NCBI RefSeq assembly: GCF_044704955.1
Contig: NC_091995.1
Coordinates: 16,120,001-16,184,000, forward strand
Length of the DNA stretch: 64,000 bases
Direction: 5' to 3'
Origin: Pristiophorus japonicus
Taxonomy: Eukaryota
Of the stretch, positions 39,076 to 64,000 are shown one piece after another (within the stretch, counting starts at the first letter, position 1; each line of letters starts with the position of its first letter). The notes beneath the pieces are model-generated. The model did no database searches. It had not been told where the DNA came from and was given only the letters and a program-made list of their open reading frames with translations. A program made the translations under genes and the position numbers.

Positions 39076-39130
39076 ATATATTTACATGTATATATAAACC
39101 AGACACACTCACACGTATATACATGTATCG

Positions 39131-40162
39131 ACACACCAGCGAGTTTACACTAGGGAGAAGTCGTTCACCCGCTCCATGTTTGGGAAGGGATTCACTCGGC
39201 CATCCACAGTTCTAAAGCACCAGCTGGTTCATATCAGGGATAGATCATTCACCTACTCTGAGTGTTGGAAGGGATTCATTCGGTCAACGAGACTGCCTAC
39301 ACACCAGCGAGTTCACACTGGGGAGAGGCCATTCACCTGCTCCACGTGTGGTAAGGGATTCACTCACTTTTCCAGCCTGCTAAAACACCAGCGAGTTCAC
39401 ACTGGGGAGAGACCTTTTATCTGCTCAGTGTGTGGGAAGGGATTCACTCACTTTTCCAGCCTGCTAAAACACCAGCGAGTTCACACTGGGGAGAGACCAT
39501 TCACCTGCTCCACGTGTGGGAAGGGATTCACTCACTTTTCCAGCCTGCTAAAACACCAGCGAGTTCACACTGGGGAGAGACCTTTTATCTGCTCAGTGTG
39601 TGGGAAGGGATTCACTCACTTTTCCAGCCTGCTAAAACACCAGCGAGTTCACACTGGGGAGAGACCATTCACCTGCTCCACGTGTGGGAAGGGATTCACT
39701 CACTTTTCCAGCCTGCTAAAATACCAGCGAGTTCACACTGGGGAGAGACCTTTTATCTGCTCAGTGTGTGGGAAGGGATTCACTCAGTCACCCAATCTGC
39801 TGACACACCAGCGCGTTCACACTGGGCAGAGGCCATTCACCTGCTCCACGTGTGGGAAGGGATTCACTCACTTTTCCAGCCTGCTAAAACACCAGCGAGT
39901 TCACACTGGGGAGAGACCTTTTATCTGCTCAGTGTGTGGGAAGGGATTCACTCAGTCACCCAATCTGCTGACACACCAGCGAGTTCACACTGGGGAGAGA
40001 CCTTTTATCTGCTCAGTGTGTGGGAAGGGATTCACTCAGTCACCCAATCTGCTGAAACACCAGCGAGTTCACACTGGGGAGAGATCGTTTATCTGCTCAG
40101 TGTGTGGGAAGGGATTCACTCAGTCACCCAATCTGCTGAGGCACCTGCGAGTTCACAAGTGA
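39131..40162 (+). pseudogene. C2H2 (Krueppel-type) zinc-finger array, 5'-truncated gene or pseudogene; open frame 39176..40162
   Basis: Ten CxxC...HxxxH-type fingers with TGERP linkers (one His to Tyr), preceded by two degenerate fingers; begins mid-finger directly after a microsatellite. Confidence 0.85.
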
Positions 40163-43769: not shown

Positions 43770-44843
43770 CTTTTTGTGGTATATATCAATGATTTAGACT
43801 TGAATATACGGGGTATGATTAAGAAGTTTGCAGATGATACAAAAATAGGCTGTGTGGTTGATAATGAAGAAGAAAGCTGCGGACTGCGGGAAGATATCAA
43901 TCAACTGCTCAGTTGGGCAGAACAGTGCCACGTGGAATTCAATCCGGGTAAATGTGAGGTAATGCATTTGGGGAGTGCTAACAAGGGAAGGGAATACACA
44001 TTAAATAGTACGACACCGAGAAGGGTAGAGGAACAAAGAGACCTTGGAATGCATGTCCACAGATCCCTGAACGTAGCAGGCCAGGTGGTTAAGAAGACAT
44101 ACGATATATTTGACTTTATAAGCCGAGGCATAGAATACAAGAGCAGGGAGGTTATGCTTGAACTGCATTAAACACTAGTTAGGCCACAGCTAGACTACTG
44201 CAATCAGTTCTGTTCATCACATTACAGGAAAGATGTGATTGCACTCGACAGGGCGCAGAGGAGGTTTACGAGAATGTTGCCTGGACTGGAGAATTTTAGC
44301 TATGAGGAACAATTGGATAGGCTGGGTTTATTTTCTTTGGAACAGAGGAGGCTGAGGGGAAACCTTTTTGAAGTCTATAATATAATGAGGGTCCAAGATA
44401 GAATGGATAGGAAGAACCTATTTCCCTTGCCAGAGGCATCAACAGACAAGGGGCATAGATAACAAATAATTGGTAGGAGGTTTAGAGGGGATTTGGTGGC
44501 ACATTTTCTCACCCAGAGGGTGATGGGAGTCTGGAACTCGCTTGGATGTGCACTTGAAGTGATGTAACCTACAAGGCTCAGGACCATGAGCTGGAAAGTT
44601 GCAAACGCATTTCCTATATTACAACAGTGACTGCACTTCAAATAGTATTTAATTTGGTTGTGAAAGGTGCTATATAAATGTAATGTTTATTTTCAGTATG
44701 TAAAGTTAATGGGAACAGGATAGGGAGATAGCTATGCTACCAAACTGGAAACCAGGCGTAAGTGGTAATTGCATTTTTCATATAACATAATTATGTTTTA
44801 ATTCTGAATTATATATGTGTGTGTATATAAATATATGTGCGTG

Positions 44844-45706: not shown

Positions 45707-45779
45707 CACGCAAGACGGGACTCAAACCCACAATCCCTGGCTTTGGAGGTCAGCGCCATATCTATTAAGCCGCTGGAGC
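45707..45779 (-). pseudogene. Degenerate tRNA-Arg copy (anticodon position CCA)
   Basis: GCTCCAGCGGCTTAATAGATATGGCGCTGACCTCCAAAGCCAGGGATTGTGGGTTTGAGTCCCG. Confidence 0.72.
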
Positions 45780-55819: not shown

Positions 55820-58800
55820 CTGTTTCCCTTTGCAGAGGGGCCAATAACCATGGGACATAGATTTAAAGTAGTTGGTTGAAGGTCTAGAGGGGAGATGAGG
55901 AAAAACATTCACCTAGAGGGTGGTGGGGGTCTGGAACTCACTGCCTGAAAGGGTGGTAGAGGCCGAAACCCTAATCACATTTTAAAAGTACTTGGATATG
56001 CAATTAAAGAGTCGTAACCTACAGGGCTACGGACCTAGTGCTGGAAAGTGGGATTAGGCTGGCTCGGGCTTTTTCGACCATCGCGGACATGATGAGCCGC
56101 TTTCCGTGTCGTAATTTTTCTAAGATTCTATGATTTCTAAAAGATTGGAAAATTTAAATTGTTCGACCAGGGTGTGTGGTCATCAATTGCTCCAGGCATT
56201 TGAATATATGTGAGCTGGAGGTGAGGTTTTCTGCATACATATAAAAAGAGGAACAAAAATTTGTCAATTTAGAACTGAATTATACGTGTCAGTCATCCGT
56301 CCGTCTATATCAATGTAGATCGATAATCAGAGCTAAGATAAGCGATCGGGTTCTGGAGATCAGTGGCGCCTGCAGAAAACGGCCAAGAACAGCTCATATA
56401 GATTTCTCTGTGACTATTACCATAATCAGTAACCGAGTTGTATTGAGACCGAGTACATCTCACCGGCCGACATGGTTCCATCTGCCTTTTGGTTTTAACC
56501 GGAGTGGTCGAAATTTGGCTCGGTTGTGCTCTGTTGCTGTTTGGATGTTCACGGCAGACACGTGGCGAAGGCTTGCCCCCACAGATAAGTGTTACCTTGC
56601 TCATACTGTTGCTGAATTCATAGAACCAGGATTAGCAGAATGGAAGGCAGCTAGTCTGCAGTCCAACTGGTCATTTCTTTCCTCAACTTTATCATCTTCA
56701 CGTCAATCGTCACTGAACAACATGCAGTTTGGGGAGGTTGCATCTACTGTACAAGAATAGAACCGCGGATAGCATGGAACTTTGGTACTATCGACCGGGG
56801 TGTCATTTCTTATGCTGTGTACTTATCAGAAGCCATCAAACTGCTTTTCTTTAGAAAATTCCCGAACGCTAAAACAAAAAGCGGCTTTAAAGACTAACAC
56901 CATTTAATTCCGTGCATCGCTGAAGTTTGCGCATCCTGTGTTGTCACTGTGGAGACCGCAAATAATTCCACTCACCCTTTATTTGGTTTGGTGCTAAATG
57001 CACCGCTCACCTTGCTTGCGCTGTTCGCCCAGGGGCTCATTGTTTCCAACCTCTCCACTTGTGCACCGACGATGCTGTTCACTCGCCAGCTTGCGTTAAT
57101 GCAGCTGATTAATTTTGCAACATGCGCGGGTGAGTTAATGGCGTTTATGCCCGTCGCGGATAACGTCCATCGGCTTAGAGAATAACGTCCATTTAAATTG
57201 GACCGTTTGCAGAAAACGGACATTTTTTGAAGAACAATTATAATATTTCCAGCTTCTAATTAGTATTTTCATTATTTGCTAGCAGGGCTGGGTGAGAAAA
57301 CAGTTAAAAATACTTAAGGAACCCTGGGCTTCATATATAGAGGTATAGAGTACAAAAGTGTGGAAATTATGATGAACCTGTACAAACCACTGGTTCAGCC
57401 CCAACTGGGCACCACACATGAAGAAAGATGGAAAGGCCTTAGTGAAGTTGCAGAAAAGAATCACGAGAATGATTCCAGGAATGAGGGAGTTCAGTTAAAT
57501 TGATAAGCTGGTGTTGTTCTCCTTGGAGCAGACACGGTTGAGAGGAGATTTGATAAGAGGTGTTCAAAATCATGAGCGGTCTGGACAGAGTAGATAGAGA
57601 GAAACGGTTTCCATTGACAGAAGTGTGGAGAACCAGAGGACACAGATTTAAGTTAATTGGCAAAAAACCAAAGGCTACGGGTAAGAAAAAACCTTTTTTA
57701 TGCAGCGAGTGATCTAGAATGCACTGCCTGAAAGGGTGGTGGAGGCAGACTCAAGCGTGGCTTTCAAAAGTGGCTTGGATAAGTATCTGAAGAAGGAAAA
57801 AAATGCAGGGCTACGGGGCAAGGGCAGGGGAGTGGGACTAATTGAGAGCCGGCACGGGCCTTCCTCTTGTGTTGTAACCATTCTACGATTCTATGGTTTG
57901 AGACAACCTCACAAACGCTAATGGGTACCGTCTGTTAACATGATTTTTTTTCTGCAACTTACGTACAGCTGTCGCACGAACATGAAATAACGGGGTCACT
58001 GTGCTATAAGAATACAAGTCTTTCTAATCATTGGGGGTGAGTTGGGGAGGAAACCAACTTAACTTTAAGGCTCTGCAAATTTTATCTCAAGGTTTAAATC
58101 AACCTGCACCTGCACTTAGTTTATGCTGCTGAGTCTGATGCATTATATATCTGTGCCTGGCTTTAAATGCACAAAGCACATGCAATCATAACATATTTGC
58201 ATAGGGGGGAAAAATTCAGGTCAAAAAGGGTCGATGACCAGAGTGCACACATTTAAGGTAATTGGCAAATGAACCAGTGGGGACGATGAGGAAACAAATG
58301 TTTATGCAGCGAGTTGTAATGACATGGAATGCACTGCCTGATAGGGAGGTGGAGGCAGATTCAAAAGGGAATTGGATGTAAACTTGAAAAGGAACTAATT
58401 TTCAGGGCTATGGCGGAAGAGCAGGTCGGGAGGGGGCTTGTCGGACTAATTCAACAGCTCTTTCAAAGGGCCGACGGGCAGGATGAGCCGAATGACCTCC
58501 TTCTGTGCTGTATCTTTCTATGATTCTATGTTTCACTGTGCTTAGCAATTAGTCCATCCTTCTCCATGCAGAGTTACAGTATGTTCTAGACCTGAGCGCA
58601 TATCGGGCAGAACTGCCGCAATCTTCTCCCGATCTCCCGCCATAGCTTTAGAATCATAGAATGGTTACAGCACAGAAGGAGGCCATTCGGCCCTTCGACC
58701 CGTGCCGGCTCTCTCCAACTAGTTCCACTCTCCCGCCCTTTCCCCGTAGCCCTGATTGTTTTATTTTCCCTTCAGGTATTATACAATTCCCGTTTGAAAA

Positions 58801-61318: not shown

Positions 61319-61881
61319 TATCCGCGTTCTCTTTCTGACGTCTCAGTATTAGCCCCGATTCCTTTTCTCAGTCCGTCACTCTACTTTTGTGCATTTCTCT
61401 TTCTCGACTCCTTTCCTTCCGACTCACAATACTCCGTCTTTGTCCCGCACTGGTAGAAAGCAACCGGCATTATAAAACGGTTGTTGAATGAAAGGAGACA
61501 ATGAAACTTTGGATGCCATGTCGTTCGGGTAATCGATCGCAGGTTGTCGATCTGCCGTCACAATTTTATCAGTTCGGCTCTTGACGTTTGCGGTTTGCTT
61601 GTATTCCCCGCTGCTGAGTGACTCTGGGCGGGATGCTTTCAGTCGTGGAGACAGCGAGACGGAGCAGCACAACCAACCTATCTTTTCCTTTCAGACCCTG
61701 GCTCACTTGCTATATATTTGCAACACTTTCTCTGTGTGTTTTTCACGTTTCCAGTATTCGCTGTTTTACTTCTTATCTCTGTATCTACATAATGTGGAAT
61801 GATAATTAACTTTACCTACAAATAATGCCGATCAGTGTTCGACAGGTGTGGCGTGCAGTCATTATCCGTTTTACTTTTCAG

Positions 61882-62220
61882 CAGGTGGGACGGATACCAC
61901 GGTCTACCAGTTACCTCCCTTTATAACTGCAACAGAAGGGGAGTCGGTGAAACTGAACTGTGCCGTGGCTACTGCAGGAAACCTATCTTCGATGGGCTCA
62001 GCTCAGTGGACACGGGGTGAACCAAATGGGTACAAACTGGATAATAGTCCATTTTATGGAGACCGGCTGGAGAAATCGGACAAAGATTCATTTTTCAACA
62101 ACAGAGTATTTATTATTATCTCCAACTTGATTGAGAAAGACTCAGACACCTATTACTGCTGGATAAACTTAATGCGAGAAGGGCAGAGTTGCGGAAATGG
62201 CACCAAATTGGAAGTGACGC
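61882..62220 (+). CDS. NCR3: Internal exon encoding a VJ-type Ig V-set domain, NKp30/NCR3-like
   Basis: VYQLPPFITATEGESVKLNC...GSAQWTR...PFYGDRL...DSDTYYC...GNGTKLEV; polypyrimidine TTTTCAG|CAG acceptor (61882 or 61885) and C|GTAAGT donor, both phase 1; motif spacing resembles NKp30 (orthology not established). Confidence 0.85.
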
Positions 62221-62350
62221 GTAAGTTGCAACTTATTGGTTGATAAAGCATGTGTTTTCATTTTCTATTCAAACAGAGCAGGATGAGTTTTGGTCCAATT
62301 TTCCGGACTTGTGATAGGCTGGCTGACCCCAGCAATCTGGGCGCCGATTA

Positions 62351-62780
62351 GTGTCAGCTATGGCTCAGTGGTGGCACCCTCGCTTGTGAGCCAGACGTCA
62401 TGGGTTAAAGTCCCACTCCAAGGACTTGAGCGCAAAAGTCTAGGCTGACGCTCCAGTGCGGTGCTGCGCTGTCGGACGTGCCGTCATTCGGATGAGACGT
62501 TTGCCCTCTCAGGTGGGTGCAAAAGATCGTTTGGCTCTATTTGGAAGAAGAGTTAATCCCCGGTGTCCTGGGGTCAATATTTATCCCTCAATCAACATCA
62601 CTAAAAACAGATTACTTGGCCATTATCACATTGCTATTTGTGGGAGCTTGCTGTGCGCAAATTGGTTCCAAGTTTCCCAGTTTACAACAATGACTACACT
62701 CCAAAATAGTACTTCATTGGCTGCAAAATGCCTTGGGACGTCTCGTGGTCGCTAAATAAATTCAAGTCTTTCTTTCTTTC
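62351..62780 (+). mobile_element. Near full-length Deu-domain SINE
   Basis: tRNA-like head GTGTCAGCTATGGCTCAGTGG, Deu core, 3' tail ending TTCAAGTCTTTCTTTC. Confidence 0.85.
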
Positions 62781-62949
62781 ACGGGGATGGGAATACAATC
62801 TCAAGTCGCTCCTCTTTGCCATACTCAAATCTTTTTTCTCCTGGAAGGTGCTTGTATGTTTGTGAGTATCAGAGGATAAAATTGGAAGCAAAACGGGTGG
62901 ATTAGCATTGGCTGGCTATTATACCACACACCAGATATTCTGTTCTATT

Positions 62950-63437
62950 GAAGAATGATTCCTGGGATGGGGGGTTGTCCTATGAGGTGAAATTGAGGAG
63001 ACTAGGCCTATCTTCTCTAGAGCTTAGAAGAATGAGAGGTGATCTCATTGAAACATACAACATTCTCACAGGGCTTGACCGGATTGATGCAAGGAGGATG
63101 TTACTTCTGGCTGGGGAATCCGGAACCAGCGGTCACAGCCTCAGAATAAGTGGTCGACCATTTAGGACTGAGATGAGGAGAAATTTATTCACTCAGAGGG
63201 TGGTGAATCTTTGGAATTCTCTACCACAGAAAGCTGTGGAAGCTCCGTTGTTGAGTACATTTAAGAAAGAGATCAATAGATGTTTTGGATATTAAGCGAA
63301 TCAAGGGATATGGGGATAATGCAGGAAAGTGGAGTTGAGGTAGAAGATTTGTCGTGATCTTATTGAATGGTGGAGCAGGCTTGAGGGGCCTAATGGCCGA
63401 ATCCTGCTCCTACCTCTTATCTTCTTATGTCCTTATG
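62950..63437 (+). mobile_element. CR1 3' fragment
   Basis: ORF 62948..63295; (CTTATG) tail. Confidence 0.88.
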
Positions 63438-63524
63438 AAATAAATATCATCTGAACCTGTAACGGGCTCCCAATACCGCTTGTGTTGCCAACCTGCTCAT
63501 GCCCAAGGTGCCTACTTTGATTTA

Positions 63525-63860
63525 ATTTGTTTCTGGGATGTGGGCATCACTGGCATGGCCGACATTTATTACCCATCCATAATTGCCCTTGAACAGGTGG
63601 TGGTGAGCCGCCTTCTTGAACCGCTGCAGTCTGCGTGGCAAATGTACTCCCCCACAGTGCTGTTAGGGAGGGAGTTCCAAGATTTTGACCCAGCGCCGAT
63701 GAAGGAAAGGCCGATATATTTTCAAGTCAGGATGGTGTGTGTGACTTGGAGGTGATCTTGGAGGTGGTGGTGTCCCCATGCGTCTGCTGCCCTTGTCCTT
63801 CGAGGCGGCAGAGGTCGTGGGTTTGGGAAGTGCTGCTGAAGAAGCTTGGCAGAGCAGGAT
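63525..63860 (-). mobile_element. LINE/SINE 3' fragment
   Basis: Tail shared with the SINEs at 49745 and 51975. Confidence 0.6.
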
Positions 63861-64000
63861 TGTGATGCTTTTTAGAGTCAAATAGCCAAACTCACCTTCT
63901 GGGCTTAACTTTGAATAATCACCATTAAATTGATATCTTGGGCGCTCCAAGTGAAGAAAAAATCCATGAAGATTCCATGTAATGAGAACATGGGACAAAA

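What the first reader, a model, noticed from the sequence alone, without database searches (positions are those of the whole stretch)
61882..62220. Germline-joined VJ Ig exon resembling NKp30/NCR3, with an extra cysteine and a NAGNAG acceptor
Seen: canonical B-strand Cys, C-strand Trp, DxxxYYC and a J-like GNGTKLEV in one phase-1/1 exon, with no RSS heptamer, so it is non-rearranging. A third Cys sits at the J Phe/Trp position (CGNG), there are N-glycosylation sequons NLS and NGT, and the tandem acceptor CAG|CAG allows plus or minus one residue. Known: NKp30 and its amphibian and shark homologues are VJ-type receptors discussed as relatives of the ancestral antigen receptor. Inference: a shark NCR3-family member, possibly disulfide-linked.
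Basis: partly seen in the sequence, partly recalled or inferred. Interest (0 to 1): 0.7.

Follow-up and report, generated by a model that had tools for sequence, protein, structure and literature searches.

The report
Shark NKp30-family receptor, likely inhibitory
This is the outer, antibody-like domain of an intact seven-exon shark gene of the already known NKp30 (NCR3) immune-receptor family, present as three near-identical tandem copies in a cluster of about 35 related exons, and its uncharged membrane anchor and two inhibitory-type tyrosine motifs mean it likely acts as a brake on immune cells rather than a trigger.

Summary
The exon is real and as described (61882/61885-62220, +, phase 1/1, V and J joined, no RSS). 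It belongs to the shark NCR3/NKp30 family. Its best hit is nurse shark NCR3 QTT61901.1 (65%, E 7e-37; 100/99 clade). Human NKp30 takes the top four fold matches. PRRC2 and BAG6, NCR3's neighbours in human MHC class III, lie 0.4 and 0.8 Mb away. I found the rest of the gene: a leader at 57072-57129 and five exons past the window end, giving an open 238-aa frame. It has a 23-residue uncharged membrane span and two ITIM-type motifs, so it is likely inhibitory, unlike human NKp30. The gene sits in a 50-kb unit repeated three times (0.8-1.1% apart) among 35 related exons. The extra J-position Cys is rare (these copies, two catshark loci, one other domain) and has no partner in the mature ectodomain; a disulfide dimer is possible but untested. 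The NAGNAG is ordinary (7 of 35 exons). Against: dN/dS to the nearest paralogue is 1.0; ligand and expression are unknown. This scan found the same family before in other shark genomes. Verdict: new member of a known family, low interest.

The parts
57072..57129 (+). Exon 1: ATG and 19-codon leader (signal peptide), phase-1 donor GTGAGT
   Evidence: tblastn with catshark homologue, 52% over 25 aa; sequence and splice site
61882..62220 (+). Exon 2: germline-joined VJ V-set domain (start 61882 or 61885 by NAGNAG), phase 1/1
61879..61884 (+). Tandem acceptor CAG|CAG (adds or omits one Ala at the leader boundary)
   Evidence: 7 of 35 cluster exons have one
62190..62192 (+). Extra Cys codon (TGC) at the J Phe/Trp position; no partner Cys in the predicted mature ectodomain
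62221..64000 (+). Intron 2, running off the window end. The other five exons lie beyond the window on G000:C19: stalk/TM 16184197-16184316; micro-exons 16184695-16184713, 16184805-16184833, 16190437-16190462; last exon with both ITIM-type motifs and the stop 16196327-16196455
   Evidence: the third micro-exon is the weakest call (third in its scan, chosen by splice sites and frame)

Best explanation
The exon encodes the single non-rearranging VJ-type V domain of an intact seven-exon shark NCR3/NKp30-family gene whose product is predicted to be a 238-aa type I membrane receptor that likely inhibits immune cells. Shown: joined V-J exon without RSS, seven exons in one open frame with GT-AG sites, uncharged 23-residue TM, two ITIM-consensus motifs, family membership, three tandem copies. 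Inferred: the leader is cleaved after its Cys, the V domain binds a cell-surface ligand (by analogy a B7-H6-like protein), the tail tyrosines are phosphorylated and recruit SHP-1/SHP-2-type phosphatases (established ITIM biology, not tested). It would be an inhibitory member of a family that also holds charged-TM members. The extra Cys is most likely a lineage-level substitution at a variable, outward-facing position; it may be free or may link two chains.
For: Best hit nurse shark NCR3 QTT61901.1, 65%, E 7.4e-37; all 7 hits of the two single-sequence searches are shark proteins at 60-65%. Tree of 61 V domains: clade with QTT61901.1, bamboo shark and catshark proteins at 100/99. Foldseek ranks 1-4 of 500 are NKp30, TM 0.80-0.84, model pLDDT 87. 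A profile of 34 sequences scores human NKp30 at 78 bits, the best among single-domain chains. PRRC2-type gene at C19:16.58-16.60 Mb and BAG6 at 17.01 Mb; 22 of 41 MHC class I matches and 1 of 2 class II alpha matches lie on the same contig at 40-57 Mb. 717-nt frame open in 3 of 3 copies. Both tail motifs occur in catshark and bamboo shark homologues; nurse shark keeps the second only. Human NKp30 signals through a TM Arg and has no signalling tail (PMC6514059, passages).
Against: dN/dS to the nearest paralogue L004 is 1.0 over 112 codons (dN 0.196, dS 0.197), so purifying selection is not shown there; it is 0.5 and 0.3 to more distant paralogues. The whole NCR3 group is separated from own-genome outgroups at only 70/62 with 114 columns, and human NKp30 was not in the tree. 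With the single sequence, human NKp30 (29.7 bits) does not outscore a two-domain antibody scFv (31.3). Of the three human B7-H6 contact residues named in PMC7409301 (passages), Gly51 is kept, Val53 is Ala and Glu111 is Asn (alignment). The nurse shark orthologue has Cys in place of the first motif's Tyr, and copy A has Asp for Ala in the second motif. An Arg follows the TM directly. The exon model is from genome homology only.
Confidence: 0.8

Rival explanations
1. Same gene, but it works as a disulfide-linked dimer: the Cys at the J Phe/Trp position joins two V domains face to face (homodimer, or heterodimer among the three copies), bringing four ITIM-type motifs together. This is compatible with the best explanation and adds a step.
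For: The Cys has no partner in the predicted mature ectodomain (Cys 18 is in the leader; 45 and 111 form the core bond; 122 is odd). It lies on the G strand in the model, at the position that packs in the VH/VL interface (recalled). Two catshark loci have the same Cys and one further NCR3-like domain has it too (P0030).
Against: The closest orthologues lack it (nurse shark Asp, bamboo sharks His, paralogue L004 Tyr). TAC to TGC is one base, so recurrence can be chance. Only 2 of 33 own-genome rows and 5 of 87 database domains have Cys. The NGT sequon two residues away could crowd the site (inference). Human NKp30 dimers described in PMC7409301 (passages) are held by hydrogen bonds and salt bridges and depend on the Asn42 glycan and stalk.
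Confidence: 0.2
2. The copies are recent, drifting duplicates on the way to becoming pseudogenes (birth-and-death evolution), or part of the triplication is an assembly artefact.
For: dN/dS 1.0 to L004. All four codons that differ among the copies change the amino acid. The cluster holds broken exons, one inside each 50-kb unit.
Against: All seven exons, twelve splice sites and the stop are intact in 3 of 3 copies. The units differ by 0.8-1.1% over 35 kb, and three versions cannot all be the two alleles of one locus. Coding differences (3-4 of 717 nt per pair) are below the unit-wide rate, though the numbers are small.
Confidence: 0.1
3. It is a different non-rearranging VJ family (CD28H-like, PRARP-like, UrIg, XMIV-like) or a germline-joined Ig/TCR gene that only resembles NKp30.
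For: Weak support for the deep NCR3 branch (70/62). Architecture (V, uncharged TM, ITIMs) is closer to PD-1 or CD28HL3 as described in PMC11599192 (passages) than to human NKp30.
Against: 65% identity to a deposited nurse shark NCR3; fold and profile both prefer NKp30; position beside PRRC2/BAG6; no C1 exon appears in the gene model (the stalk exon follows the V exon, as in the homologues); no EIP or PPP CDR3 motif of the CD28 family; 15 own-genome outgroup V domains fall outside.
Confidence: 0.05

Closest known systems
Nurse shark NCR3 family, subtype of QTT61901.1 (Kinlein et al. 2021, Immunogenetics 73:333; seen only as a reference-list title in PMC10450919, with accession range MT914154-914161 cited in PMC12227049; content recalled)
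   Same: 65% V-domain identity, same 238-aa length and layout (leader, VJ, uncharged TM, tail ending in a VEYxTI motif), one 100/99 clade.
   Different: Extra Cys where nurse shark has Asp; two intact ITIM-type motifs where nurse shark has one; three recent tandem copies.
Human NKp30 (NCR3)
   Same: Single VJ-type domain, same fold (TM-score 0.80-0.84), G-strand NGT sequon (human Asn121), Gly-Ser before the C-strand Trp, neighbours PRRC2 and BAG6 (human gene order recalled).
   Different: About 30% identity; human has a TM Arg pairing with CD3zeta/FcRgamma, activates and is single-copy (copy number recalled); this gene has an uncharged TM and ITIM-type motifs; the Asn42 sequon is not at the same site; Glu111 is not kept.
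Catshark LOC119976539 / LOC119976781 and bamboo shark LOC122541531
   Same: 60-62% identity, same layout and two tail motifs; the catshark pair shares the J-position Cys.
   Different: Annotated only as uncharacterized; catshark models include isoforms without the TM segment; bamboo shark has His at the Cys position.
UrIg / UrIg2 and germline-joined Ig genes of sharks (PMC12227049, passages)
   Same: Non-rearranging VJ exon; UrIg is MHC-linked.
   Different: Those carry C domains and are closer to Ig/TCR; the paper uses NCR3 as the more distant root and names UrIg2 as the better candidate relative of the RAG-invaded gene.
Type I IgNAR V domain (PMC8151367, passages)
   Same: A non-canonical Cys in FR4 (that it is this exact position is recalled).
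   Different: In IgNAR it bonds within the domain to a CDR3 Cys; here no such partner exists, and the gene does not rearrange.

Membership tests
NCR3/NKp30 family (jawed vertebrates) | Single exon encoding V and J strands, no RSS | tested here: met
NCR3/NKp30 family (jawed vertebrates) | Closest named relatives are NCR3 by sequence and tree | tested here: met
   QTT61901.1 65%, E 7e-37; 100/99 subtype clade; family-wide branch only 70/62
NCR3/NKp30 family (jawed vertebrates) | NKp30-like fold | tested here: met
   Foldseek ranks 1-4; profile best single-domain hit
NCR3/NKp30 family (jawed vertebrates) | MHC class III synteny (PRRC2A, BAG6) and MHC linkage | tested here: met
   (0.4 and 0.8 Mb); class I and class II alpha on the same contig 24-41 Mb away; class II beta search rang nowhere
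NCR3/NKp30 family (jawed vertebrates) | Binds B7-H6 | not testable with these tools
   1 of 3 named contact residues identical; shark B7-H6 not sought
Mammalian-type activating NKp30 | Charged Arg in the TM for CD3zeta/FcRgamma, no signalling tail | tested here: not met
   23 uncharged residues, Arg only after them; 74-residue tail with two ITIM-type motifs
ITIM-bearing inhibitory receptors | (S/I/V/L)xYxx(I/V/L) motifs in the tail, uncharged TM | tested here: met
   LHYAKV and VEYDTI/VEYATI; both in catshark and bamboo shark; consensus recalled
ITIM-bearing inhibitory receptors | Phosphatase recruitment and inhibition of activation | not testable with these tools
   needs experiment
CD28 family | PPP or EIP motif in the CDR3 loop | tested here: not met
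   absent; motifs from PMC11599192; own-genome EIP-bearing domains L072/L073 fall outside. PD-1 lacks the motif too, so this row does not test PD-1
Rearranging or germline-joined Ig/TCR, UrIg | RSS and/or C1 domains after the V | tested here: not met
   no RSS; V exon joins a stalk/TM exon in the model
Disulfide-linked V-domain dimers | Interchain disulfide through the odd Cys | not testable with these tools
   odd Cys present; needs non-reducing gel

The most novel reading that the evidence does not exclude
A shark NCR3 lineage has put a Cys at the V-V interface position used by antibody and T-cell receptor pairs, more than once, so that germline VJ domains from three recently duplicated, slightly different genes pair covalently as homo- or heterodimers. 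That would be a non-rearranging, two-chain inhibitory receptor with combinatorial pairing, a living model of the paired V-domain state before RAG.
Probability: 0.08. Interest if true: 0.6.

Novelty: new member of a known kind. Interest (0 to 1): 0.22.

Why it matters
It adds a fully mapped, probably inhibitory member to the shark NCR3 family and shows how large the family is in this genome: 35 matches over 2.3 Mb on both sides of PRRC2-BAG6, with a fresh 50-kb triplication. This fits the view that NKp30's ancestors were a paired activating/inhibitory multigene family in MHC class III, of which humans kept one activating gene (inference; the shark family paper could not be read, so it may already say this). 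The odd Cys gives a cheap test of covalent V-V pairing in a non-rearranging VJ receptor. None of this changes current views on antigen-receptor origins.

Tried and rejected
RNA evidence: no RNA holder listed; no reads were laid. Homodimer prediction of the V domain: no verdict, score 0.00 in two runs, alignment not used; not evidence either way. First search for one 26-aa exon between TM and tail found nothing convincing; the segment is three micro-exons. MHC class II beta search rang nowhere, controls included. Rfam scan of 40000-64000 gave one weak tRNA-like match at 45707-45779 and nothing at the exon. Papers not held: Kinlein 2021, Flajnik 2012, Ohta and Flajnik 2015; whether ITIM subtypes or the Cys are already described there, or in their supplements, is open. 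Searches for shark NCR3 listed no paper on its signalling in the held library. Tree: 22 of the own-cluster exons were used (near-duplicates and broken ones left out), one domain per database protein, no human NKp30, no test_one_clade run. Rejected: RSS or rearrangement; activating NKp30-type signalling; NAGNAG as a special feature (PMC1449888, abstract only, treats such variation as stochastic splicing). Earlier findings near this place and by sequence: none.

Full report
Observation. The window sequence and its translation show an open 112-codon frame between a tandem acceptor (exon start 61882 or 61885) and a GTAAGT donor after 62220, phase 1/1. Pfam V-set scores 34.4 bits against a cut-off of 26. 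No heptamer-nonamer pair lies in 61700-64000 on either strand.

Family. The best protein hit is nurse shark 'natural cytotoxicity triggering receptor 3' QTT61901.1 (65%, E 7.4e-37); the other 6 hits of two searches are catshark and bamboo shark proteins at 60-63%. Alone, the domain matches human NKp30 weakly, among antibodies. A profile of 33 own-genome exons plus one bamboo shark domain scores human NKp30 at 78 bits, first among single-domain chains, and pulls out proteins labelled NCR3 in Xenopus, Leptodactylus, Pleurodeles, sturgeon and sharks. The AlphaFold model (pLDDT 87) has NKp30 as Foldseek ranks 1-4. In a 61-row tree the exon groups with QTT61901.1 at 100/99; the family as a whole is set apart from 15 own-genome outgroup V domains at only 70/62, and the tool warns of few columns.

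Place. The window is G000:C19:16120001-16184000. All 35 matches at E 0.001 or better lie on C19 between 15.67 and 18.00 Mb. A PRRC2-type gene lies at 16.58-16.60 Mb (one of three loci in the genome) and the only BAG6 match at 17.01 Mb, inside the cluster. In humans NCR3 is in MHC class III (PMC6514059, passages) next to PRRC2A and BAG6 (recalled). MHC class I exons (22 of 41 matches) and one of two class II alpha matches are on the same contig at 40-57 Mb. So orthology to the NCR3 locus rests on synteny as well as likeness.

Gene. Homology scans gave a leader at 57072-57129, a stalk/TM exon 197 bases past the window end (C19:16184197-16184316), three micro-exons of 19, 29 and 26 nt, and a last exon at C19:16196327-16196455. 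Joined, they give 717 nt and 238 aa with GT-AG sites throughout, the length of the nurse shark protein. The TM is 23 uncharged residues, followed by an Arg at the cytoplasmic edge. The tail holds LHYAKV and VEYDTI, both fitting the ITIM consensus (consensus recalled). Catshark and bamboo shark homologues have both motifs; nurse shark keeps the second. Human NKp30 works through a TM Arg and has no signalling tail. Other shark NCR3-like proteins have a TM Arg or Lys, for example QTT61904.1 and a bamboo shark two-domain protein, so both signalling types likely exist in the family.

Copies. The gene lies in a unit of about 50 kb present three times in tandem, 0.8-1.1% apart over 35 kb. All three frames are intact; four codons differ, all changing the residue, one removing the NLS sequon and one giving copy A Asp in the second motif. 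dN/dS is 1.0 to the nearest paralogue L004, 0.5 to L005 and 0.3 to L006. The first value fits either relaxed selection or a mix of purifying and diversifying selection, and no leader, TM or tail exon of this subtype was found for L004, so L004 may be the drifting side.

The two special features. The position before GxG is variable: Tyr 17, Thr 6, Cys 2, Phe 1 among 33 own rows (the identical second copy was left out), and Cys in 5 of 87 database domains, four of them catshark isoforms of two loci. L004 has TAC where this gene has TGC. The Cys has no partner once the leader is cleaved (cleavage after Cys18 is inferred from the small-residue rule). It may be free or form an interchain bond; this is untested. 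NAGNAG acceptors occur in 7 of 35 cluster exons, four of them this subtype, and here would add or omit one Ala at the leader boundary. By residue count the nurse and bamboo shark proteins have one residue more at this junction than the catshark ones, which fits use of either acceptor (inference from protein only).

Mechanism. Most likely a germline-encoded inhibitory receptor on NK-like cells or T cells: ligand binding by the V domain, tail phosphorylation, phosphatase recruitment. Gene structure and motifs are shown; expression, ligand and signalling are inferred. B7-H6 is the ligand by analogy only: of Gly51, Val53 and Glu111 named in PMC7409301 (passages) only the Gly is identical.

What is known. 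The shark NCR3 family is in print (Kinlein et al. 2021; title seen in the reference list of PMC10450919; accessions cited in PMC12227049). NKp30 as an MHC-linked VJ relic is stated in PMC10751288 and PMC12227049 (passages), the latter ranking UrIg2 above NCR3 as a relative of the RAG-invaded gene. Earlier notes of this scan report the same family, with inhibitory members, in other shark genomes; my reading was written before I saw them.

Verdict. Observation confirmed, family call supported, signalling likely inhibitory. New member of a known kind; interest 0.22.

Noticed in passing
window 47800-47100 (-), with further pieces at 45335-45236 (-), 44686-44782 (+), 42034-41938 (-): A dead NCR3 paralogue: its V part is frameshifted and cut near the F-strand Cys by a repeat of about 335 bp (29 matches in 264 kb, likely a SINE). 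The J-like remainder with its donor follows the repeat and occurs four times per 50-kb unit, three times without a V part, each behind a TTTTCAG. One V and four J-like pieces made by an ordinary repeat insertion, a loose echo of the RAG split; no RSS was looked for here, and the break is 5' of CDR3.
   Followed up: partly
G000:C19:16159299-16308907 (first unit starts at about window 39300): Tandem triplication of about 50 kb holding the gene and the dead paralogue; units 0.8-1.1% apart.
   Followed up: partly
L004, G000:C19:16098321-16098653 (-): Intact VJ exon, 65-67% identical to the finding, with good splice sites and the same NAGNAG, but no leader, TM or tail exon of this subtype was found for it in 16.02-16.37 Mb; the next gene (L005) has its own candidate leader, TM and two-Tyr tail.
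   Followed up: partly
G000:C19:17395081-17400862 (+); also 15986294-15988578 (-) and 17735779-17742536 (-): Four VJ exons in tandem about 1.6-2.3 kb apart, and other close pairs: probably multi-V-domain members, like the 2- and 3-domain shark and ray proteins.
   Followed up: no
G000:C3:316.6-319.3 Mb: Nine MHC class I matches with alpha1 and alpha2 in one unbroken frame of 419-777 codons, i.e. without the usual intron, with nearly equal scores; one broken relative at C13:26.08 Mb.
   Followed up: no
L064, G000:C20:97931546-97931842 (-): A VJ-type exon outside the NCR3 group with five Cys, including a Cys before GNG at the same J position, and a NAGNAG acceptor.
   Followed up: no
G000:C13:85.3-111.4 Mb (L066, L067, L068, L074, L077) and C2 (L072, L073): Other non-rearranging VJ exons: a C13 group with GNGT in the J strand (four of them form a 98/97 clade) and two with the EIP motif of CD28H-like genes.
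   Followed up: no
window 39098-40159 (+): Open frame of 354 codons made of tandem C2H2 zinc-finger-like repeats.
   Followed up: no
catshark records P0004, P0008: Isoforms that lack the TM segment in frame, possible soluble forms; in the gene here the TM exon is 120 nt, phase 1/1, so the same skip would keep frame.
   Followed up: no
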